Part shown: piece after piece, positions 23,268 through 32,000 of the stretch
How the letters are laid out: every line of letters begins with the position of its first letter
Numbering within the stretch: position 1 is the first letter of the stretch
Source of the DNA: Candidatus Brocadia sp.
Lineage (GTDB): Bacteria > Planctomycetota > Brocadiia > Brocadiales > Brocadiaceae
Direction of reading: 5' to 3'
NCBI GenBank assembly: GCA_021650915.1
Contig: CP091279.1
Location: 2,760,001 to 2,792,000, forward strand
Length of the DNA stretch: 32,000 nt
Translations under genes and position numbers: made by a program
The notes under the pieces: model-generated
What the model was told of the DNA's origin: nothing
What the model saw: only the letters and a program-made list of their open reading frames with translations
The model's database searches: none

Positions 23268-23346
<79 letters not shown>

Positions 23347-24757: not shown

Positions 24758-25039
24758 TTATGAATTCCCACCGGCAATGGCAGGTACGATAGAGATATGA
24801 TCGCCATCCTTGACCGGCGTATTGAGGTTGCCCATAAATCTTATATCTTCGTCGTTGAGGTAAAAATTGATAAACCTTCGTATCTGCCCGTCGTTGTCAC
24901 AGATCCTTTCCTTAATTCCCTTATAGGTTGCTTCAAGATTGTCGACGATATCTTTAATATTCTTCCCTTCCGCCTTTACCTCGTCGGCGCCTTTGGTAAG
25001 GGTTCTCAGTGGGGTCGGAATGCGTACCGTTACTGCCAT
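24758..25039 (-). CDS. MoaD/ThiS-family sulfur-carrier protein (C-terminus ...AIAGG-NS)
   Basis: It is 93 aa, beta-grasp-like, ending ...DGDHISIVPAIAGGNS. It lies 70 nt downstream of the ThrC-like gene. Confidence 0.75.
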   Translation of the reverse strand: MAVTVRIPTPLRTLTKGADEVKAEGKNIKDIVDNLEATYKGIKERICDNDGQIRRFINFYLNDEDIRFMGNLNTPVKDGDHISIVPAIAGGNS

Positions 25040-25109
25040 GCTTATACTCCCTTCAGATGTTCATGTTGGATTGTTACTGGTTTGAGGCAATGCCTCGTCA
25101 AATAATTCA

Positions 25110-26360
25110 CTACCCTTTTTGTGCTACAGCCACTTTCTTGTTCATAATGGCGTCAAATTCAGCGAGGGAAGGATTGATAATCTTTGGCGCTTCTAATTTA
25201 TCCAGAACGGCCTCCTGCGTCTTCAGTCCATTGCCCGTTACGCTGATGACGATGGATTCGTCGTGCGGGATTTTGCCCTGTTCGATAAGTTTTTTGGTAA
25301 CCGCAACCGTGACTCCCCCTGCGGTTTCCGTAAAGATACCCTCCGTCCGGGCGAGTAATTTAATGCCTTCCACGAGTTCGTCATCGGTGACATCCTCCGC
25401 CCAACCCCCGGATACGTTAATGGACTTCACTGAATAATAGCCATCCGCAGGGTTGCCGATAGCTATTGACTGCGCGATGGTCTTTGGCTTTACGGGTTTT
25501 ATCACATCGGTTTCCTGTTTGACGGCAGTGGTTATCGGTGCGCTGCCGCTTGCCTGGGCTCCGTGGAGTTTCGTGTCCGCCTCATCAATAAGCCCCAGTT
25601 TTACGAATTCTTTTATGGCCTTTTCTATCTTCGTTATCAGAGAACCTCCTGCCATAGGAACGATGATATGTTTCGGCACTTTCCAGCCCAGCTGCTCCAT
25701 GATTTCGTATCCATAGGTTTTTGAGCCTTCTCCGTAGTAGGGTCTCAGATTCACATTTACGATTGCCCAGCCGTATTTGTCCGCAATCTCTGAGCACAGT
25801 TTGTTTACGTTATCATAGTTTCCCTTGACTTTTATCACGTTCGTGCCGTAGATCAGCGTGCCAACAATCTTTCCCTGTTCAAGATCGGCCGGCATGATGA
25901 TGTAGCTTTCCAGGCATGCCTGCACGGCCTGGGCTGCGACCGAGTTCCCCAGATTTCCTGTCGTGGCGCATCCAACCGTTTTATACCCGAACTCCTTCGC
26001 CTTTGTTAGCGCAGTAGAAACAACGCGATCCTTAAAGGAGAACGTGGGATAATTTACTGAATCATTCTTCACGTACAGTTCCCTGACCCCAAGGACTTTA
26101 GCAAGATTATTTGCCCTGACGAGTGGTGTAAAACCGACCTGAGCGCCCACGGTAGGTTCGCCGTCAACCGGAAGTAATTCCTGGTACCGCCACATGGTTT
26201 TACCGCGCGATTCGATCAGTTTCCTAGTCAAAACCTTCTTAATCCCTTCGTAATCATAATCAACCTCCAGCGGACCAAAACAAAAGCTGCAGACATGCAG
26301 GGGCTCTTTCGGATACGGTTTCCCGCACTCCCGGCACTTTAGACCATTTACAAATCCCAT
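25110..26360 (-). CDS. thrC: threonine synthase-family PLP enzyme with N-terminal zinc ribbon (context suggests a MetM-like homocysteine-forming role)
   Basis: The 416-aa ORF has an N-terminal CRECG...CSFCFGPLEV ribbon, a PLP-lysine region TFSFKDR and a glycine-rich loop PMAGGSL. A GGAGG sequence sits 6 nt upstream of the ATG. Confidence 0.8.
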   Translation of the reverse strand: MGFVNGLKCRECGKPYPKEPLHVCSFCFGPLEVDYDYEGIKKVLTRKLIESRGKTMWRYQELLPVDGEPTVGAQVGFTPLVRANNLAKVLGVRELYVKNDSVNYPTFSFKDRVVSTALTKAKEFGYKTVGCATTGNLGNSVAAQAVQACLESYIIMPADLEQGKIVGTLIYGTNVIKVKGNYDNVNKLCSEIADKYGWAIVNVNLRPYYGEGSKTYGYEIMEQLGWKVPKHIIVPMAGGSLITKIEKAIKEFVKLGLIDEADTKLHGAQASGSAPITTAVKQETDVIKPVKPKTIAQSIAIGNPADGYYSVKSINVSGGWAEDVTDDELVEGIKLLARTEGIFTETAGGVTVAVTKKLIEQGKIPHDESIVISVTGNGLKTQEAVLDKLEAPKIINPSLAEFDAIMNKKVAVAQKG

Positions 26361-26502
26361 CTATCGCCTCCATCCTATAATATCAAATTCAAGGTTCTTC
26401 CTGACTTACGGTGATTTAGCAGTTGGTGGTTAAAAGCCTGTGGAAAAGCGGGACACGTAGGTTTCTGTTGCTGCTTTTTTTACCCAAGTTTTCTGAAGAA
26501 CC

Positions 26503-26546
26503 AAATAAAAAAGCCTCTTTCTATATACATAAGATAGGAAGAGGCC
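26503..26546 (-). terminator. intrinsic terminator = expression platform of the SAM riboswitch
   Basis: The minus strand reads GCCTCTTCCTAT-...-ATAGAAAGAGGC followed by TTTTTTATTT. The upstream AAGATAAGATAGG can pair alternatively with CCTATCTTAT as an antiterminator and shares bases with the P1 3' strand. Confidence 0.75.
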
Positions 26547-26560
26547 TTTTTATTCACCTA

Positions 26561-26682
26561 TCTTATCTTTCCCCAAAACACGAGACAGGAATTAGCACCA
26601 GCATCCTGCCCACCCTATTAGCTGGACAAGACCGGTTGCTGTGGCTTCGCAGGGCCAGTCCCTCTGCCACTCTCGATAAGAC
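26561..26682 (-). promoter_or_regulatory. SAM-I (S-box) riboswitch aptamer
   Basis: The minus strand reads CTTATCGAGAGTGGCAGAGGGACTGGCCCTGCGAAGCCACAGCAACC...GGTGCTAATTCC...AGATAAGA. This matches the conserved S-box blocks CUUAUC.AGAG.GG..GAGGGA.UGGCCC..GAA.CC..GCAACC...GGUGCUAAUUCC...AGAUAAG. Confidence 0.9.
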
Positions 26683-26696
26683 AAAAATTTAATCGA

Positions 26697-26725
26697 ATTG
26701 TAACGATAAATCAGAAAGTTGTCAA
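26697..26725 (-). promoter_or_regulatory. sigma-70-type promoter driving the riboswitch-thrC-moaD transcript
   Basis: The minus strand has TTGACA (26725..26720), a 17-nt spacer and TACAAT (26702..26697), about 15 nt upstream of the P1 helix. Confidence 0.65.
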
Positions 26726-26837: not shown

Positions 26838-27914
26838 TTAGCAATAGCGAATGACGCGCGTTCTGCCGTATTCCTTTCCATCCCGGTCAACCTTCACTAC
26901 CCCCAGCCGAATGGTCGTAACCTTATGAATCTCTTCAACAGGGGTAAAGAGGGTTAGTTTGCCGGCAAAAGGGTCGGTATCAGCGATGGTGCCAAGTCCC
27001 AGGGTACAATTGTTGTCGTCGTTGAGACCCACCAGAAGGTCTTTCAATCCATCTCTTTCAATAAGTATGACTGATGCAACACCAAAGGATTCTTTCAACG
27101 GGGAAACCGGTATTAATGCATCTGCAGCGTCTGCTATGATTAAAAGTTCGTTGCCGCATTTTTCCAGGTATGGGCGGTTTGGGGCGTGTATGCAGAGCTT
27201 ATTTGGCAATACTGATGGATCGATCCTTTCTCCGGTGCCGAGAATGCAGGAGGGAAACACCACCCGATGGAGGGAACAATCGGTAAGTCGGGCATGTTTA
27301 AAATAGGCCTTGTATTTTTCAGTCCGGTATTTCTGTCGCTCAGCCTGCGAGCGGGCAGCCACGTGTTCTGAGCAGGTCAGCCGTATAACCTGCCAGCCCA
27401 TCTTCTCGTATCCTTTCAACAGATGCTCCATCTCATCTCCTGCCTGCAATGCAAGAATCCATTGCGGGCGGAGCATTTCTATCTTATGCTGCTTCAGGAT
27501 ACGGGCAACAGGCCCGTCAATAAAGCCTGCCGTGTCTATGAGGGTGATTTCTGCGCCTTGTTGCCGGGATTTGTCAGCCATCATTTTTACCGCATGGAGT
27601 GTCTGCACCAAAAACCCGTCAGGCGCGGTATTGCCTACAAACTGAAGATACGGAGGATTTGCATCATTACGGGGATGATGAGGGGTATCATAAATTTTTA
27701 AACTGACCGTGGTTGGGAAGCCTATGGTAGATTGCCCCAGATCGCTATCGACATATCCGACCCGCACCCTGGAAGCCGTCCATGTCTGGATCAAATACTT
27801 ACAGAGGGTGCTCTTGCCGCTATCGGTCCTGCCGAGAATAATGCCTGTTTTTGCGCCGTGCTTTATCTCCTCTGCCACGCGTCGCCATTCCCTTGGGACA
27901 ATGATCGTGTTCAT
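26838..27914 (-). CDS. Clp1/Grc3/Nol9-family P-loop polynucleotide 5'-kinase homologue
   Basis: GIILGRTDSGKSTLCKYLIQ...VGYVDSDLGQSTIGFPTTVSL...ITLIDTAGFIDG parallels the Clp1 Walker A, D.D.GQ and Walker B blocks. Its ATG shares a base with the recJ stop (TAATG). Confidence 0.7.
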   Translation of the reverse strand: MNTIIVPREWRRVAEEIKHGAKTGIILGRTDSGKSTLCKYLIQTWTASRVRVGYVDSDLGQSTIGFPTTVSLKIYDTPHHPRNDANPPYLQFVGNTAPDGFLVQTLHAVKMMADKSRQQGAEITLIDTAGFIDGPVARILKQHKIEMLRPQWILALQAGDEMEHLLKGYEKMGWQVIRLTCSEHVAARSQAERQKYRTEKYKAYFKHARLTDCSLHRVVFPSCILGTGERIDPSVLPNKLCIHAPNRPYLEKCGNELLIIADAADALIPVSPLKESFGVASVILIERDGLKDLLVGLNDDNNCTLGLGTIADTDPFAGKLTLFTPVEEIHKVTTIRLGVVKVDRDGKEYGRTRVIRYC

Positions 27915-29647
27915 TATTCATCATCAAATTTCAGATCTTTCACCTCCAGCTCAAGCTGCTCACCGTTCATCCAGGTATTTATTTTTACGGTAAAGGCAAG
28001 GGAGCACATCCTTCCGTTTTGTTTCAGCCGGTCGATCTGTTCTCCCATCCCAAAGGCAACAGCCCGGACGGCAACGTCTCCCTGTTTGACATAGAAAGTC
28101 AGGTGTTGTCCTTTTGTGCCAATACGGCGTGGCTGTCCAACGATCTTTGCGTTTGTGACGGCAAATAAGGGGATGGGATTTCCCTCGCCGTGGGGGGAGA
28201 GACGCGCCAGTTCAGCTACTACAGCCTTTGATAAGAGGGAGAGCGCGATTTCTGCATCAATGTTCAGTACGCGCACCAGGTCCGTCTTACAAAGTCTTTG
28301 GGCGGTAGTTCTGTTGAGCATGTCGCGAAATTCGTCAATATTATGCGGGTGTATCTTTAGCCCTGCCGCCTGGGCATGACCACCCACGGAAAGCAAGGTA
28401 TCCCTGCAACTCTCTAACGCCTCCAGGATATGGAATGAGGGGATGGAGCGCGCAGAACCGCGTCCGATATCGTCCGCTACGGCAATCATCACCGTGGGGC
28501 GGTTAAATTCTTCTACTATTTTCGAGGCAATAATTCCAATAATCCCGGGGTGCCAGGCGTGGTCTGCCAGTACGATCGCGGTAGTTTCATCCAGATTTAA
28601 TTCATGTAATACCTTTTTCCGCGCCGATGCCATGATATCAACCTGCATTTCCTGTCTTCGCTTATTCTCCTGCTCCAGAAAATTGGCAATTTCTGTAGCC
28701 CGCTCCTTGCAGGGTGTTGTCAACAGTTCAACAACGATTCCCGCATTTCCTATGCGTCCTGGGGCATTTAATCGGGGGCCCAAGCGATATCCCACGTGAA
28801 AGGCGTCAAGGTTGGTCCGGGAAAGATCAGCTACATCGAGAAGCGCGCGCAATCCGGGGATTTCGGTGTGTTGTAATGCGCTCAGACCGTATTTTGTGAT
28901 GATACGGTTTTCACCCACCAGCGGCACCACGTCCGCAATGGTCCCCAGGGCGACCAGCCCTACCGCGCTTAACAGAAAATCCTTGAAGTCAGGAGACACC
29001 TTCTTTTGCGGTGAAAAAAGCTGTCCGATGGCCCATGCCAGTTTAAACGCGATACCCACACCGGAGAGATCACGGAAAAGATGATGGGATGCATGCAATT
29101 TAGGGTTAATTACGGCGAAGGCGCCGGGTATTTCCTGCCCGGGCCGATGGTGGTCGGTAATGATCAGGTCGATGCCGCAGGCGCGTGCGATATCGGCTTC
29201 CCGGCAGGCGTTGATACCGCAATCAACCGTCAGGATAACGTTTGCTCCTTCCTCCCGCAGTTTTTGAATTGCATCAGCATTTAAACCGTATCCCTCCTCC
29301 AGTCGCTCTGGAATATAATAACTCACTTGTGCCCTCAGCAATTTCAGGCATCGATACATGAGAGCGGTAGCTGACAGACCGTCAACATCATAGTCGCCAT
29401 AGATGACAATTCTCTCTCCTCTCCGTATGGCCTCGTTGATACGGATGGATGCCTTTTCAATGTCAGGGAGAAGTGAAGGGTCTCCAAGTGACGCGATTTG
29501 TGGCTGAAGGAAACTTCTGGCGGATGCAACATCAACAATTCCGCGATTGACAAGCACCTGGGCTAATAAGGGCGATATCTTAAGCTTGCTGGCAATCTCC
29601 GTCTGGAGTGGCCTGTTCGGGGGGGAAAAAACCCACCTTTTTATCAT
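27914..29647 (-). CDS. recJ: single-stranded-DNA-specific exonuclease RecJ
   Basis: The 577-aa ORF has DHH-family motifs (IYGDYDVDGLSA, VDCG, ITDHH) and a DHHA1 region (GGHAQAAG). Confidence 0.95.
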   Translation of the reverse strand: MIKRWVFSPPNRPLQTEIASKLKISPLLAQVLVNRGIVDVASARSFLQPQIASLGDPSLLPDIEKASIRINEAIRRGERIVIYGDYDVDGLSATALMYRCLKLLRAQVSYYIPERLEEGYGLNADAIQKLREEGANVILTVDCGINACREADIARACGIDLIITDHHRPGQEIPGAFAVINPKLHASHHLFRDLSGVGIAFKLAWAIGQLFSPQKKVSPDFKDFLLSAVGLVALGTIADVVPLVGENRIITKYGLSALQHTEIPGLRALLDVADLSRTNLDAFHVGYRLGPRLNAPGRIGNAGIVVELLTTPCKERATEIANFLEQENKRRQEMQVDIMASARKKVLHELNLDETTAIVLADHAWHPGIIGIIASKIVEEFNRPTVMIAVADDIGRGSARSIPSFHILEALESCRDTLLSVGGHAQAAGLKIHPHNIDEFRDMLNRTTAQRLCKTDLVRVLNIDAEIALSLLSKAVVAELARLSPHGEGNPIPLFAVTNAKIVGQPRRIGTKGQHLTFYVKQGDVAVRAVAFGMGEQIDRLKQNGRMCSLAFTVKINTWMNGEQLELEVKDLKFDDE

Positions 29648-30166
29648 GGTGTATTTTGTTTAATGAGAAAAAGAGAATGGCAGTGCCATATAACACACAA
29701 AGCGTTTATTTCCGGAAGACCACAAAATTCCTATGATAACTTTGCCCAATGGTCTTCGTGTGCTATGGATACGTACCCAAACTGTCGAACTTGCGGCAAA
29801 TGCCTGTCAGGTCTTCATTGAGGTCCGAAATCAGAGGCAATTTCAAAATCGCCGCACCGGATATTTCTGGCCTCGTTTTTATCTCAGTTCATTGTACTTT
29901 GATTTATACGTCTTTCAAGGAAATTTAATTATTTTTCCCTGCCATTTACCCGTTTTCTGATTTCATATGGTATCCTTCTCCGTCAAGGATTGCCATAAAA
30001 CTTCTATTGAAAAAAGCACCGTGATGTGATACTATTGTTCAGTTAATTCAATAGATTCCGTGCCCGGTATCAGATATTATACTGATCGAACGCCCCTTGT
30101 TTATTCCTTCACTTTGAAACAAATAATATTCCCGTGTTTCTTATGCTCTGCTCTGCGAAGTAAGCC

Positions 30167-32000
30167 ATGAAAAAAAATAGTATCTTTCGTGAATGTGCTG
30201 CATTGTTGTCATTTGCAAAACCCTACCGGAAACATTTGGCGCTGACTATTATCAGCATGGTTATTTATACCTCAACAAGCGGTATCCAGATTTCGCTAAT
30301 CAAACCTATTGTAGACAAACTGCTCCTGGGAAATACCAATACAGGTCTTTCGTTGCCAAAGATCGATATTGACCAGGAGGGTCAATCCCACAAAAATGCC
30401 TCTCCTGTGAAACAGTTTAAAAAACAGGCCTTTTCCAAATTCACGTTTATAGAAAAAACGCGAAGACGCGCCACAAGTTCATTCACAAGCATTGGCATAA
30501 CAATGGTAATCTTTGCCCCGATTCTTTTCCTTTCTTTTTATTTTCAGCAATACTACAGAAATTATGTCATGTGGGCTATTGTTGTGGATATACGGAACAA
30601 GGTATGCGATCATATCCTTCCCCAGCCACTGAGCTTTTTTGAGAACAGAAAGAGTGGCGATCTCCTCTCCAGATTAACAAACGACATTGCAGTAACGCAG
30701 TCGGGACTTACGGTCCTCTTTGATGATGTTTTGCTGCAGCCGCTGAAGTTGATTTGCGGATTGGCCCTGGCGTTTTATTTCAGCTGGAAGCTGTCTTTGT
30801 TGGTTTTGATTGCCTTCCCTGTAATATTTATTCCCGTGCTGATCATGGGAAAGAAGATCAAGAAACACGGAAAGGGAAGTTTGCGGCATCTTTCTGACCT
30901 CACCGACGCGCTCAGGGAAATGTTTGTGGGAATTCGAATTGTGAAGGCATTTAAGATGGAGGCTGAAGAAAGCCGCGAAATACATGAAATCAGCGATCGA
31001 TTCTTCACAAAAAGAATGAAATTGGTTAAGGCAAAGGCCGTCAACACGAGCACCAGTGAATTTGTGTATACCTTGGGACTTGCCCTTTTGATTATTCTGG
31101 GCGGGTATGTAATTATGTCCAGGAAAGTTACCCCCGGAGAGCTTGGTGGATTTATTACCGCTATGGGCTTTATGGTAATCACGACCGTCAAGAAACTGGC
31201 CAAAGGATATGCAAGTTTGCAGGAATCTCTGGCTGGTGTCAATAGGGTATTTGAACTCTTTACGATCGAGCCCACCATAAAAGATCATCCCGAAGCCGTT
31301 ACGCTGCAAAATATTCATGAGGGGATATCCTTTAACAATGTCAGTTTTTCCTATGATAATAGCAATGAATTTATCCTGAGAGATATTAATCTTACGATCA
31401 ACAAAGGAGAGGTGGTTGCTATTGTAGGCAAGAGCGGGGCCGGGAAATCGACACTGATAAATCTGATACCGCGTTTCTACGATCCTGTCAAAGGCAGTGT
31501 GGAAATTGATGGAATTGATATACGAAAAATTAAACACGAATCTCTTCTCGCACACATTGCCATCGTTTCGCAACAAACATTCCTGTTTAACCGCAGTCTG
31601 CGTGAAAATATTCTCTACGGAAGGAAGGATGCTTCACCTGAGGAAATTTATGCTGCAGCAAAATCTGCCAATATCCATGAATTTATTATCAATCTCCCTA
31701 AAGGGTACGATACCGTTGTGGGTGAACTGGGGGTAAAATTATCAGGCGGTCAACGGCAACGGATTGCCATTGCCCGTGCCATACTGAAAAATGCCTCAAT
31801 TTTACTTTTGGACGAGGCGACTTCGTCCCTGGACTATGAATCTGAAAAACTGGTGCAGGATGCACTCAACAACCTGATCGCCGGGAAAACAACCATCATC
31901 GTCGCCCATCGTCTTTCCACCATACTCCATTGCGACCGGATCATTGTAATGAAAAACGGAGCCATCGTCGAGACGGGAAGCCATGAATCCCTGATGTCAG
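30167..32000 (+). CDS. ABC exporter, fused permease/ATPase (MsbA/ABCB type), 3' end off window
   Basis: Absent from the ORF track because there is no stop in the window. My translation from the ATG at 30167 gives MKKNSIFRECAALLSFAKPYRKHLALTIISMV.... Motifs are Walker A GKSGAGKST, signature LSGGQRQR and Walker B ILLLDEATS. The 300-aa minus ORF 30674..31576 is its antisense shadow. Confidence 0.9.
   Translation, partial: MKKNSIFRECAALLSFAKPYRKHLALTIISMVIYTSTSGIQISLIKPIVDKLLLGNTNTGLSLPKIDIDQEGQSHKNASPVKQFKKQAFSKFTFIEKTRRRATSSFTSIGITMVIFAPILFLSFYFQQYYRNYVMWAIVVDIRNKVCDHILPQPLSFFENRKSGDLLSRLTNDIAVTQSGLTVLFDDVLLQPLKLICGLALAFYFSWKLSLLVLIAFPVIFIPVLIMGKKIKKHGKGSLRHLSDLTDALREMFVGIRIVKAFKMEAEESREIHEISDRFFTKRMKLVKAKAVNTSTSEFVYTLGLALLIILGGYVIMSRKVTPGELGGFITAMGFMVITTVKKLAKGYASLQESLAGVNRVFELFTIEPTIKDHPEAVTLQNIHEGISFNNVSFSYDNSNEFILRDINLTINKGEVVAIVGKSGAGKSTLINLIPRFYDPVKGSVEIDGIDIRKIKHESLLAHIAIVSQQTFLFNRSLRENILYGRKDASPEEIYAAAKSANIHEFIINLPKGYDTVVGELGVKLSGGQRQRIAIARAILKNASILLLDEATSSLDYESEKLVQDALNNLIAGKTTIIVAHRLSTILHCDRIIVMKNGAIVETGSHESLMS

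What the first reader, a model, noticed from the sequence alone, without database searches (positions are those of the whole stretch)
26838..29647. recJ translationally coupled (TAATG) to a Clp1-family polynucleotide 5'-kinase
The 358-aa protein downstream of recJ has the Clp1/Grc3/Nol9 P-loop layout: TDSGKST, then VDSDLGQS, then IDTAGF. This family is typical of eukaryotes and archaea, where it phosphorylates 5'-OH RNA or DNA ends, and it is uncommon in bacteria. Its start codon shares a base with the recJ stop, which implies co-expression and probably a fixed stoichiometry. RecJ is a 5'-to-3' ssDNA exonuclease that engages the 5' end. From memory and unverified, RecJ structures show a 5'-phosphate pocket. 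A dedicated kinase could license 5'-OH ends for RecJ resection, for example those left by toxins, RNase-type cleavage or some nucleases. I am not aware of such a two-gene end-processing module being described.
Basis: partly seen in the sequence, partly recalled or inferred. Interest (0 to 1): 0.68.

Follow-up and report, generated by a model that had tools for sequence, protein, structure and literature searches.

The report
RecJ exonuclease paired with Clp1-type kinase
In anammox bacteria of the family Brocadiaceae, the DNA-end-chewing enzyme RecJ is encoded back-to-back with a Clp1-type enzyme that adds a phosphate to nucleic-acid 5' ends; the pairing is real and undescribed but confined to this one family, and whether the two enzymes work together is untested.

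Summary
On the minus strand, recJ (27914-29647) ends in TAATG, and its last A is the first base of a 358-aa ORF (26838-27914). That ORF is a bona fide Clp1-family polynucleotide 5'-kinase: Pfam CLP1_P at E=8e-39, all four kinase motifs intact, and a predicted fold matching human and C. elegans Clp1.

The window comes from a Candidatus Brocadia genome. The recJ-clp1 order was found in every Brocadiaceae-type locus with enough upstream DNA (Brocadia, Kuenenia, Loosdrechtia, Wunengus and unnamed metagenome contigs), although both flanks change. The stop/start overlap survives in only about half of them. In one lineage a ParE/RelE toxin cassette sits between the two genes.

Outside the family the linkage vanishes: none of 73 loci with at least 1.7 kb of upstream DNA has recJ next to clp1. 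Bacterial Clp1 genes have no universal partner. In Methylomirabilota, however, clp1 sits in an fpg-clp1-radical SAM-polX cluster, a second DNA-repair context.

RecJ's 5'-phosphate pocket is documented and conserved here. "Licensing" of RecJ by the kinase remains an inference, and as I recall E. coli RecJ does not need a 5'-phosphate. Bacterial Clp1 kinases are already known. Moderate interest: a lineage-specific new pairing of known enzymes.

The parts
27914..29647 (-). recJ, single-stranded-DNA-specific 5'-3' exonuclease (577 aa, E. coli-length form without the Deinococcus/Thermus C-terminal domain)
   Evidence: TIGR00644 equivalog at 540 bits. Pfam DHH, DHHA1 and RecJ_OB. PDB sequence hits 8y30 and 5f54 at E about 1e-88. 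DHH motif D165-H166-H167. 5'-phosphate pocket R115/R298/S398/R400. Deoxyribose-selecting Y120 conserved.
26838..27914 (-). clp1-like polynucleotide 5'-hydroxyl kinase (358 aa): P-loop kinase domain (about residues 20-208) plus Clp1-type C-terminal domain (about 210-358); no eukaryote-type N-terminal domain
   Evidence: Pfam CLP1_P at E=8e-39. phmmer hit to human CLP1 8hmy_E at 1.3e-6. AF2 model with pLDDT 82 and pTM 0.79. Foldseek hits to 8hmy_E at E=1e-14 and to 4oi0, Grc3 and Nol9, over about 355 columns.
27912..27916 (-). TAATG junction: recJ stop TAA and clp1 start ATG share base 27914
   Evidence: The same TAATG is found in L002, L129, L130, L132, L139, L140 and L142. L019 has an ATGA overlap. 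Kuenenia L001 has an overlap of at least 1 nt, and 7 nt with the start called in the assembly.
27807..27833 (-). Walker A / P-loop codons (G28-R-T-D-S-G33-K34-S35-T36)
   Evidence: G28, G33 and K34 are present in 150 of 152 aligned sequences (top representative relatives plus the query); the other 2 have gaps.
27729..27752 (-). Walker B region codons (V55-D56-S-D58-L-G60-Q61-S62)
   Evidence: D58, G60 and Q61 are present in 149 of 152 aligned sequences. The region aligns to human CLP1 VELDVGQ.
27522..27539 (-). Clasp motif codons (I126-D127-T128-A-G130-F131)
   Evidence: G130 is near-invariant, D127 is D or N, and T128 is T or S. Motif naming follows Saito 2019 and Pillon 2018.
27324..27353 (-). 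Lid motif codons (R188-S-Q-A-E-R193-Q-K-Y-R197)
   Evidence: R193 and R197 are present in 151 of 152 aligned sequences. The segment aligns to the human CLP1 lid segment RSKDFRRECR.
29648..30164 (.). Divergent intergenic region between recJ and an ABC-exporter gene on the + strand; probable recJ-clp1 promoter region
   Evidence: Sigma-70-like sites on the minus strand at 29918-29891 (10/12) and 30103-30076 (10/12). An ABC exporter ORF opens at about 30165 on the + strand and runs off the window. These are consensus matches only.
26560..26725 (-). Downstream boundary of the unit: promoter-like site (26725-26697) and SAM riboswitch (26560-26682) belonging to the next gene (thrC-like, 25110-26360)
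   Evidence: RF00162 at 80.7 bits against a gathering score of 44.4. Promoter-like site at 11/12. This shows that clp1 is the last gene of the recJ unit.

Best explanation
A two-gene operon specific to the anammox family Brocadiaceae encodes the housekeeping RecJ 5'-3' ssDNA exonuclease followed by a catalytically intact, prokaryote-type Clp1 polynucleotide 5'-OH kinase.

Shown:
- Both identities.
- The integrity of the Walker A, Walker B, clasp and lid residues.
- The overlapping junction, and the independent transcription unit downstream.
- Retention of the gene pair across genera while the flanks change.

Inferred:
- The kinase transfers the ATP gamma-phosphate to 5'-OH termini of DNA strand breaks. 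Prokaryotic Clp1 enzymes phosphorylate both RNA and DNA in vitro.
- This produces 5'-phosphate ends that fit RecJ's terminal 5'-phosphate pocket and are also ligatable.
- The pair would therefore work as a 5'-end clean-up kit: phosphorylate 5'-OH ends, and resect or remove dRP with RecJ.
- This is the DNA analogue of Grc3/Nol9 phosphorylating pre-rRNA to mark it for Rat1/Xrn2.
For: - Identity of both proteins.
- Catalytic residues near-invariant across 152 aligned sequences.
- Junction and lack of a Shine-Dalgarno sequence.
- Separate downstream unit with promoter plus SAM riboswitch.
- Pair kept in Brocadia, Kuenenia, Loosdrechtia, Wunengus and unnamed Brocadiaceae-type contigs. The upstream neighbour varies (ABC exporter, UvrA, GlyQ), and so does the downstream neighbour (thrC-like, GcvT).
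- RecJ 5'-phosphate pocket documented (PMC4846377) and conserved here.
- Prokaryotic Clp1 phosphorylates ssDNA as well as RNA (PMC6777427).
- Independent second DNA-repair context: in Ca. Methylomirabilota, clp1 lies in fpg-clp1-radical SAM-polX. The PolX PHP domain supplies 3'-phosphatase activity (PMC6616362 abstract).
- Kinase-then-5'-exonuclease logic is established for Grc3 and Rat1 (PMC5900568).
- GC and GC3 of clp1 equal those of recJ, so clp1 is not a recent insertion.
Against: - The linkage is confined to one family: 0 of 73 loci elsewhere, with no universal partner. It could therefore be inherited synteny.
- An overlapping junction also makes a gene pair mechanically hard to separate.
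- Coupling is lost in 8 of 18 family loci.
- The only characterised bacterial Clp1 prefers RNA and needs more enzyme for ssDNA.
- As I recall, E. coli RecJ is equally potent on 5'-P and 5'-OH ends (Han et al. 2006; not held).
- drRecJ assays used purchased 3'-FAM oligonucleotides with no stated 5'-phosphorylation, and these were digested well.
- After the first cleavage RecJ's substrate carries a 5'-phosphate anyway.
- No source of 5'-OH DNA ends is encoded nearby.
- There is no evidence of physical interaction.
Confidence: 0.4

Rival explanations
1. The kinase is an RNA 5'-OH kinase, as in the rest of the Clp1/Grc3/Nol9 family. It would act in RNA repair or mark 5'-OH RNA fragments for 5'-monophosphate-dependent decay. 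Its position after recJ would then be lineage-specific inherited synteny of two housekeeping genes with no mechanistic link.
For: - Ts-Clp1 prefers ssRNA and dsRNA.
- All characterised eukaryotic members act on RNA.
- Bacterial clp1 neighbours are heterogeneous: radical SAM, histidine phosphatase, CoxG, GidA/GidB and others, with no universal partner.
- recJ linkage is absent outside Brocadiaceae.
- Spacers and a TA cassette are tolerated between the genes.
Against: - The pair survives rearrangement of both flanks across four genera.
- A second lineage places clp1 between fpg and polX.
- No RNA ligase, RtcB, Hen1 or cyclic phosphodiesterase partner was seen among about 267 scanned neighbours.
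Confidence: 0.35
2. The Clp1-like protein is mainly a nucleotide-binding scaffold or regulator of RecJ, like yeast Clp1 in CF IA, which binds ATP but has no kinase activity. It would use its C-terminal domain as a docking platform rather than acting as an enzyme.
For: - Yeast Clp1 lacks kinase activity yet is functional (PMC6777427 discussion).
- Clp1 and Grc3 C-terminal domains mediate partner binding in solved complexes that are the top fold matches: TSEN, Pcf11 and Las1 complexes.
- Translational coupling favours co-assembly.
Against: - All catalytic motifs, including lid arginines R193 and R197 and the clasp, are near-invariant across 152 aligned sequences. This argues for retained catalysis.
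- Coupling is dispensable in many family members.
- No interaction data exist.
Confidence: 0.07
3. The pair processes mixed or short nucleic acids rather than chromosomal breaks. Examples are 5'-OH RNA-DNA junctions or oligonucleotides left by toxins or ribonucleotide-excision side reactions. The kinase would prepare them and RecJ would degrade the DNA part.
For: - Low substrate specificity of prokaryotic Clp1, which acts on both RNA and DNA.
- A ParE/RelE-family toxin cassette is inserted exactly between the two genes in one lineage. RelE-type toxins leave 5'-OH ends (my knowledge).
Against: - The TA insertion is most simply a mobile cassette landing in an operon junction.
- RecJ Y120, the residue that excludes ribose in drRecJ, is conserved.
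- There is no direct evidence.
Confidence: 0.1

Closest known systems
Prokaryotic Clp1 polynucleotide kinases (Thermus scotoductus Ts-Clp1; Pyrococcus Clp1)
   Same: Same family (CLP1_P) with the same Walker A, Walker B, clasp and lid motifs. Neither has the eukaryotic N-terminal domain. Bacterial occurrence is patchy, and sources often annotate them as 'GTPase or GTP-binding protein'.
   Different: Ts-Clp1 is a roughly 27-kDa kinase-only protein without a C-terminal domain. The window protein has a Clp1-type C-terminal domain of about 150 aa, like most of its top 150 relatives. No gene-context or RecJ link was reported for Ts-Clp1. The activity of the window protein is untested.
Las1-Grc3/Nol9-Rat1/Xrn2 pre-rRNA ITS2 processing (kinase marks a 5'-OH end for a 5'-3' exonuclease)
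   Same: A Clp1-family kinase is paired with a 5'-3' exonuclease that has a 5'-phosphate-recognising site. The logic is 'phosphorylate, then degrade' (PMC5900568; RecJ pocket).
   Different: The known system is eukaryotic, acts on RNA, and includes the endonuclease Las1 that makes the 5'-OH end and activates the kinase. Here the exonuclease is the DNA-specific RecJ (DHH family, not Xrn). No endonuclease partner is encoded nearby, and dependence of RecJ on 5'-phosphate is doubtful.
Bifunctional end-healing enzymes: T4 Pnkp, bacterial Pnkp/Hen1, mammalian PNKP
   Same: They carry out 5'-OH phosphorylation to restore processable or ligatable ends. Mammalian PNKP works with Nei-like glycosylases (my knowledge), which recalls the fpg-clp1-polX cluster in Methylomirabilota.
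   Different: Those kinases belong to the T4 Pnk/adenylate-kinase-like branch and are fused to a 3'-phosphatase. The window protein matches no phosphatase family in Pfam and belongs to the Clp1 branch.
Canonical bacterial RecJ (E. coli, D. radiodurans, T. thermophilus)
   Same: Full RecJ architecture, with catalytic, 5'-phosphate pocket and ribose-excluding residues conserved.
   Different: Nothing in the RecJ sequence itself is unusual. Only its operon partner is new.

Membership tests
Clp1/Grc3/Nol9 polynucleotide 5'-kinase family (Pfam CLP1_P, PF16575) | Profile match above the curated threshold over the whole kinase domain | tested here: met
   133.9 bits against a cutoff of 26.6, E=8e-39, covering profile positions 1-187 of 188.
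Clp1/Grc3/Nol9 polynucleotide 5'-kinase family (Pfam CLP1_P, PF16575) | Walker A GxxxxGK[ST], Walker B D-x-D-x-G-Q, clasp [DN]-T-x-G, lid R-x3-R | tested here: met
   G28/G33/K34/S35; D56/D58/G60/Q61; D127/T128/G130; R193/R197. All are present and near-invariant in 152 aligned sequences. Motif definitions come from PMC6777427.
Clp1/Grc3/Nol9 polynucleotide 5'-kinase family (Pfam CLP1_P, PF16575) | Clp1 fold: central P-loop kinase domain plus C-terminal domain | tested here: met
   AF2 model with pLDDT 82. Foldseek top 23 PDB hits are all Clp1, Grc3 or Nol9. Best hit is 8hmy_E at E=9.8e-15 and TM 0.60, over 353 columns.
Clp1/Grc3/Nol9 polynucleotide 5'-kinase family (Pfam CLP1_P, PF16575) | ATP-dependent phosphorylation of 5'-OH RNA/DNA | not testable with these tools
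   Biochemical assay needed. The only bacterial precedent is Ts-Clp1.
Eukaryotic Clp1 sensu stricto (CF IIm / TSEN-associated) | N-terminal beta-sandwich domain (Clp1_eN) preceding the kinase domain | tested here: not met
   The kinase domain starts at about residue 20, and there is no N-terminal domain in the sequence or the model. This is the prokaryotic layout described in PMC6777427.
RecJ (TIGR00644) | Equivalog-level profile match; DHH, DHHA1 and OB domains; DHH catalytic motif; 5'-phosphate pocket | tested here: met
   540 bits against a cutoff of 397. Three Pfam domains. D165-H166-H167, R115, R298, S398, R400 and Y120 align with the drRecJ residues.
Kinase-licensed 5'-3' exonuclease module (Grc3-Rat1 type logic) | Kinase and exonuclease co-expressed | tested here: met
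   Overlapping genes, no internal promoter-like site on the minus strand, and a separate downstream unit. Co-transcription itself has not been measured.
Kinase-licensed 5'-3' exonuclease module (Grc3-Rat1 type logic) | Exonuclease activity depends on a 5'-phosphate created by the kinase | not testable with these tools
   The pocket exists. However, E. coli RecJ is reportedly indifferent to 5'-P versus 5'-OH (my memory; paper not held).
Kinase-licensed 5'-3' exonuclease module (Grc3-Rat1 type logic) | Dedicated endonuclease producing the 5'-OH end (Las1 equivalent) | tested here: not met
   No nuclease gene lies in the unit or its immediate flanks in the window or in L001-L004.
PNKP-type bifunctional end-healing enzyme | 3'-phosphatase domain fused to the kinase | tested here: not met
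   Pfam shows only CLP1_P plus weak generic P-loop hits. The C-terminal domain superposes on the Clp1 C-terminal domain.
Anti-phage defence systems (PADLOC) | Match to a known defence-system component | tested here: not met
   Only a marginal P-loop hit (mad8, E=9.5e-4) for the kinase, and none for RecJ.

The most novel reading that the evidence does not exclude
Two-domain bacterial Clp1 proteins are DNA-repair 5'-OH kinases rather than RNA-processing enzymes. In Brocadiaceae the kinase is wired to RecJ, for phosphorylation-assisted engagement or ligation-ready 5' ends. In Methylomirabilota it is wired to Fpg and PolX. Together with the 3'-phosphatase of the PolX PHP domain, this would form a split prokaryotic counterpart of eukaryotic PNKP in strand-break and base-excision repair. 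Nuclease-kinase pairing would then be an ancient theme of the whole Clp1 family. Archaeal clp1 is likewise coupled to an RNase H-fold nuclease-like gene and lies next to radB.
Probability: 0.25. Interest if true: 0.65.

Novelty: new variant of a known kind. Interest (0 to 1): 0.42.

Why it matters
Bacteria are generally thought to lack a dedicated DNA 5'-kinase in chromosomal strand-break repair. The known bacterial polynucleotide kinases (Pnkp/Hen1 and phage Pnkp types) are tied to RNA repair. No physiological role is assigned to the scattered bacterial Clp1 homologues.

If the Brocadiaceae kinase really prepares 5'-OH DNA ends for RecJ or for ligation, three things would follow:
- Bacterial Clp1 would gain a function.
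- The eukaryotic "phosphorylate, then 5'-3' degrade" logic of Grc3-Rat1 would extend to bacterial DNA metabolism.
- 5'-OH breaks would be implicated as a relevant lesion in anammox bacteria and nitrite-dependent methane oxidisers.

If it is only synteny, the finding is an ordinary lineage-specific operon of two known enzymes. The question can be tested directly with two recombinant proteins and labelled oligonucleotides.

Tried and rejected
- The search for related loci on genome contigs failed with two diverse alignments, because no stretch was conserved enough. I replaced it with a hand-made degenerate Walker A / Walker B DNA pattern, which was highly specific: 119 of 120 hits were Clp1-like.
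- The NCBIfam scan gave no specific family for the kinase.
- Han et al. 2006 (RecJ substrates) and Burroughs & Aravind 2016 (RNA repair systems) are not held. Text searches for the 5'-P versus 5'-OH statement found nothing usable. That point therefore rests on memory.
- I considered a defence-system reading and rejected it (PADLOC).
- I considered recent horizontal insertion of clp1 behind recJ and rejected it. GC and GC3 are equal, and the pair is present family-wide.
- I considered 'a different P-loop family', such as GTPase, MobB or APS kinase. These are only weak P-loop-level hits.
- I considered an AlphaFold prediction of a RecJ-linker-Clp1 fusion to test interaction but did not run it.
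- I looked for a universal operon partner of bacterial clp1 among 267 neighbour proteins and found none.
Full report
**1. What is in the sequence**

Both genes lie on the minus strand. recJ occupies 27914-29647 (577 aa) and a 358-aa ORF occupies 26838-27914. Read on the coding strand, the junction is GATGATGAATAATGAACACG. The recJ stop TAA and the ATG of the next ORF share base 27914. No Shine-Dalgarno-like purine run lies 5-13 nt before that ATG, which fits termination-reinitiation coupling.

On the minus strand the promoter scan found no promoter-like site between the recJ start and the end of the 358-aa ORF. Candidate promoters lie at 29918-29891 and 30103-30076, in a 517-nt divergent region shared with an ABC-exporter gene that opens at about 30165 on the plus strand.

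Downstream, a near-consensus promoter-like site (26725-26697) and a SAM riboswitch (26560-26682, 80.7 bits) precede a thrC-like gene. The unit therefore consists of exactly two genes.

**2. Identities**

The upstream protein is an ordinary RecJ:
- It hits the TIGR00644 equivalog at 540 bits and has DHH, DHHA1 and RecJ_OB domains.
- It matches solved RecJ structures at E about 1e-88.
- The catalytic DHH triad is D165-H166-H167.
- The four residues of the terminal 5'-phosphate pocket of D. radiodurans RecJ (R109, R280, S371, R373) correspond to R115, R298, S398 and R400.
- The tyrosine that excludes ribose (Y114 in drRecJ) is conserved as Y120.

The downstream protein is a Clp1-family kinase:
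- Pfam CLP1_P scores E=8e-39 over the whole profile.
- phmmer finds human CLP1, yeast Grc3 and C. elegans Clp1 among solved structures.
- An AlphaFold model (pLDDT 82, pTM 0.79) has Clp1, Grc3 or Nol9 structures as its top 23 Foldseek hits. The best is 8hmy_E at E=1e-14, aligned over about 355 columns. Both the kinase domain and the C-terminal domain are therefore Clp1-like.
- It lacks the eukaryotic N-terminal domain.
- Walker A (G28, G33, K34), Walker B (D56, D58, G60, Q61), clasp (D127, T128, G130) and lid (R193, R197) are present. They are near-invariant in an alignment of the query with the best representative relatives.
- I infer an active kinase. Activity itself cannot be tested here.

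**3. Where it comes from and how widespread the kinase is**

The closest protein (98% identity) is from Candidatus Brocadia sp. UTAMX2. All hits above 50% identity that carry a name are from Brocadia, Kuenenia, Loosdrechtia, Wunengus or unclassified Brocadiaceae/Planctomycetota. The four named genera all belong to Ca. Brocadiaceae.

An exhaustive profile-free search of 1.84 billion cluster representatives found 2023 relatives at E<=1e-3. Most of the top 150 have the same two-domain length of about 355 aa at 28-37% identity. Named members are from Nitrospirota, NC10/Methylomirabilota, Planctomycetota and Abditibacteriales.

Of these, 119 encode a Clp1-like protein. About 76 are bacterial: Armatimonadota, Chloroflexota, Actinomycetota, Thermodesulfobacteriota, Rokubacteria/Methylomirabilota, Nitrospirota, KSB1, WOR-3, Poribacteria and a few Pseudomonadota. 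The other 44 are archaeal.

This agrees with Saito et al. 2019. They found Clp1 in 0.9% of complete bacterial genomes and showed that Thermus scotoductus Clp1 phosphorylates RNA preferentially, and ssDNA at higher enzyme amounts (PMC6777427). The family is uncommon in bacteria but already described there.

**4. Is the recJ linkage conserved?**

Within the family, yes. recJ lies directly upstream on the same strand in all of the following:
- Kuenenia (L001) and Loosdrechtia (L002-L004).
- A Planctomycetota MAG (L019) and Ca. Wunengus (L062).
- Every Brocadiaceae-type metagenome contig with enough upstream sequence (L129-L134, L136-L140, L142, L143).

The flanks differ between lineages. Upstream is an ABC exporter in the window and Kuenenia, UvrA in Loosdrechtia, and GlyQ in L131. 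Downstream is the riboswitch-controlled thrC-like gene in the window, and GcvT in Kuenenia, Loosdrechtia and L131.

The junction state varies across the 18 loci:
- TAATG in eight loci.
- An ATGA overlap in one locus.
- A short overlap in Kuenenia.
- A 40-nt spacer in L138, 92 nt in L143 and 163 nt in L062.
- 946-964 nt in five loci, where a ParE/RelE-family toxin gene (PF05016, E=2e-8) and a 69-aa upstream ORF have been inserted.

The clp1 start in the interrupted loci is still preceded by a relic of the old junction (TTTGATAATG...). The overlap is therefore ancestral, and its loss is tolerated.

Outside the family the linkage disappears. I examined 141 non-Brocadiaceae bacterial or unassigned loci, of which 114 had a called clp1 gene. 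Of these, 73 had at least 1.7 kb upstream and 63 had at least 1.7 kb downstream. phmmer and tblastn with the window RecJ found a single recJ. It is in a Lindowbacteria contig, about 3.7 kb from clp1 with opposite-strand genes between.

**5. What else sits next to bacterial clp1?**

I scanned 117 putative operon partners and 150 further neighbours against Pfam. No family is present in more than about 10% of loci. The commonest are radical SAM (11), histidine-phosphatase branch 1 (9), CoxG (5), Fpg (4-5) and PolX (3-5).

The Fpg, PolX and most radical SAM hits belong to one lineage. It is identified through a named cluster member as Ca. Methylomirabilota. There the order is fpg (TIGR00577) - clp1 - radical SAM - polX (NF006375), on one strand with short gaps (L196 4061-8918; also L145, L154, L157, L159, L176, L178). 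This is a second, independent DNA-repair context. PolX PHP domains have 3'-phosphatase and 3'-phosphodiesterase activities (PMC6616362 abstract).

In archaea, 16 of 44 loci have a translationally coupled upstream gene of about 215 aa with weak DUF460/YqgF-like (RNase H-fold) hits. The same number have a divergent RadB/Rad51-like gene. No RNA ligase, RtcB, Hen1 or cyclic phosphodiesterase appeared among the top families.

**6. Mechanism**

*Best-supported reading (confidence about 0.4).* The operon co-expresses RecJ with an active 5'-OH polynucleotide kinase. The kinase converts 5'-OH DNA termini into 5'-phosphate termini. These fit RecJ's terminal phosphate pocket and are also substrates for ligase, giving a 5'-end clean-up pair. 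The logic has a precedent within the same kinase family: Grc3/Nol9 phosphorylates pre-rRNA to mark it for the Rat1/Xrn2 5'-exonuclease (PMC5900568).

The identities, the operon anatomy and the family-wide retention are shown. The DNA substrate and any benefit to RecJ are inferred.

The evidence against this reading is substantial:
- The linkage is confined to one family and could be inherited synteny.
- Coupling is dispensable.
- The one characterised bacterial Clp1 prefers RNA.
- By my recollection, E. coli RecJ is equally potent on phosphorylated and unphosphorylated 5' ends (Han et al. 2006; not retrievable).
- drRecJ assays used purchased 3'-FAM oligonucleotides with no stated 5'-phosphorylation.
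- After the first hydrolysis RecJ's substrate carries a 5'-phosphate regardless.

*Main rival (about 0.35).* The protein is an RNA 5'-kinase whose position behind recJ has no mechanistic meaning.

*Minor rivals.* It could be a scaffold or regulator role like yeast Clp1 (about 0.07). Alternatively, the pair could process chimeric or short nucleic acids (about 0.1).

**7. Comparison with the known, and verdict**

- The kinase is a member of the Clp1 family (prokaryotic layout), and the exonuclease is a canonical RecJ.
- Neither is a PNKP-type bifunctional enzyme, since there is no phosphatase domain, and neither is a defence-system component.
- The held literature contains no description of a recJ-clp1 or fpg-clp1-polX arrangement.
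- The finding is a lineage-specific new pairing of two known enzyme types, with a plausible but unproven functional link.

Its interpretation is partly supported.

The most novel reading not excluded is that two-domain bacterial Clp1 proteins are DNA-repair 5'-kinases, here wired to RecJ and in Methylomirabilota to Fpg and PolX. I put that at about 0.25. It would merit an interest score of about 0.65 if true.

Noticed in passing
window 24758-26725 (minus strand): A SAM riboswitch (26560-26682, RF00162, 80.7 bits) and a near-consensus promoter-like site precede two genes. The first is a ThrC-like PLP enzyme with an N-terminal zinc ribbon (25110-26360). The second is a ThiS/MoaD-like small protein (24758-25039). 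SAM control plus a sulfur-carrier partner suggests a methionine/homocysteine-synthesis pair (MetM/MetO-like, from my memory) rather than threonine synthase.
   Followed up: partly
L131:4328-4803 (also L133, L134, L136, L137): A ParE/RelE-family toxin gene (92 aa, PF05016, E=2e-8) with an overlapping 69-aa upstream ORF is inserted exactly between recJ and clp1 in one Brocadiaceae lineage. The ORF is a putative antitoxin with no Pfam hit. The insertion leaves a relic of the old overlapping junction in front of clp1.
   Followed up: partly
L196:4061-8918 (also L145, L154, L157, L159, L176, L178): In Ca. Methylomirabilota (NC10), clp1 lies in a same-strand cluster fpg - clp1 - radical SAM - polX. 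This links a Clp1 kinase to base-excision and gap-filling repair genes. The radical SAM protein matched no specific NCBIfam family.
   Followed up: partly
L012:4148-5556 and 15 other archaeal loci (e.g. L021, L023, L026, L044, L047): Archaeal clp1 genes are preceded by a translationally coupled gene of about 215 aa with weak DUF460 / Tex_YqgF (RNase H-fold nuclease) matches. They are flanked by a divergent RadB/Rad51-like gene. Each feature is present in 16 of 44 loci. This is a conserved nuclease-like + kinase pairing that I did not pursue.
   Followed up: no
L032:990-1634, L122:5734-6375, L015:744-1463 and about 6 more loci: A histidine-phosphatase superfamily (branch 1) gene sits directly downstream of clp1 on the same strand in about 9 bacterial loci, mostly Armatimonadota. 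This kinase + phosphatase pair is reminiscent of end-healing enzymes.
   Followed up: no
L005:4661-6867: A short (288 aa) Clp1-like gene overlaps by 4 nt the end of a 447-aa HSP70/actin-fold ATPase gene. This is another lineage-specific coupling of unknown meaning.
   Followed up: no
window 30165-32000 (+ strand) and 23268-23345: An ABC exporter gene (ABC_membrane-type N-terminus) runs off the window end, divergent from recJ as in Kuenenia. The ORF tool does not list it for that reason, and the 300-aa minus-strand ORF at 30674-31576 is probably its antisense shadow. A tRNA-Pro (CGG) lies at 23268-23345.
   Followed up: partly
L002:1035-3860: In Ca. Loosdrechtia the gene divergent from recJ-clp1 is uvrA, so three DNA-repair-related genes are neighbours there. 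This was not seen in the other genera.
   Followed up: no
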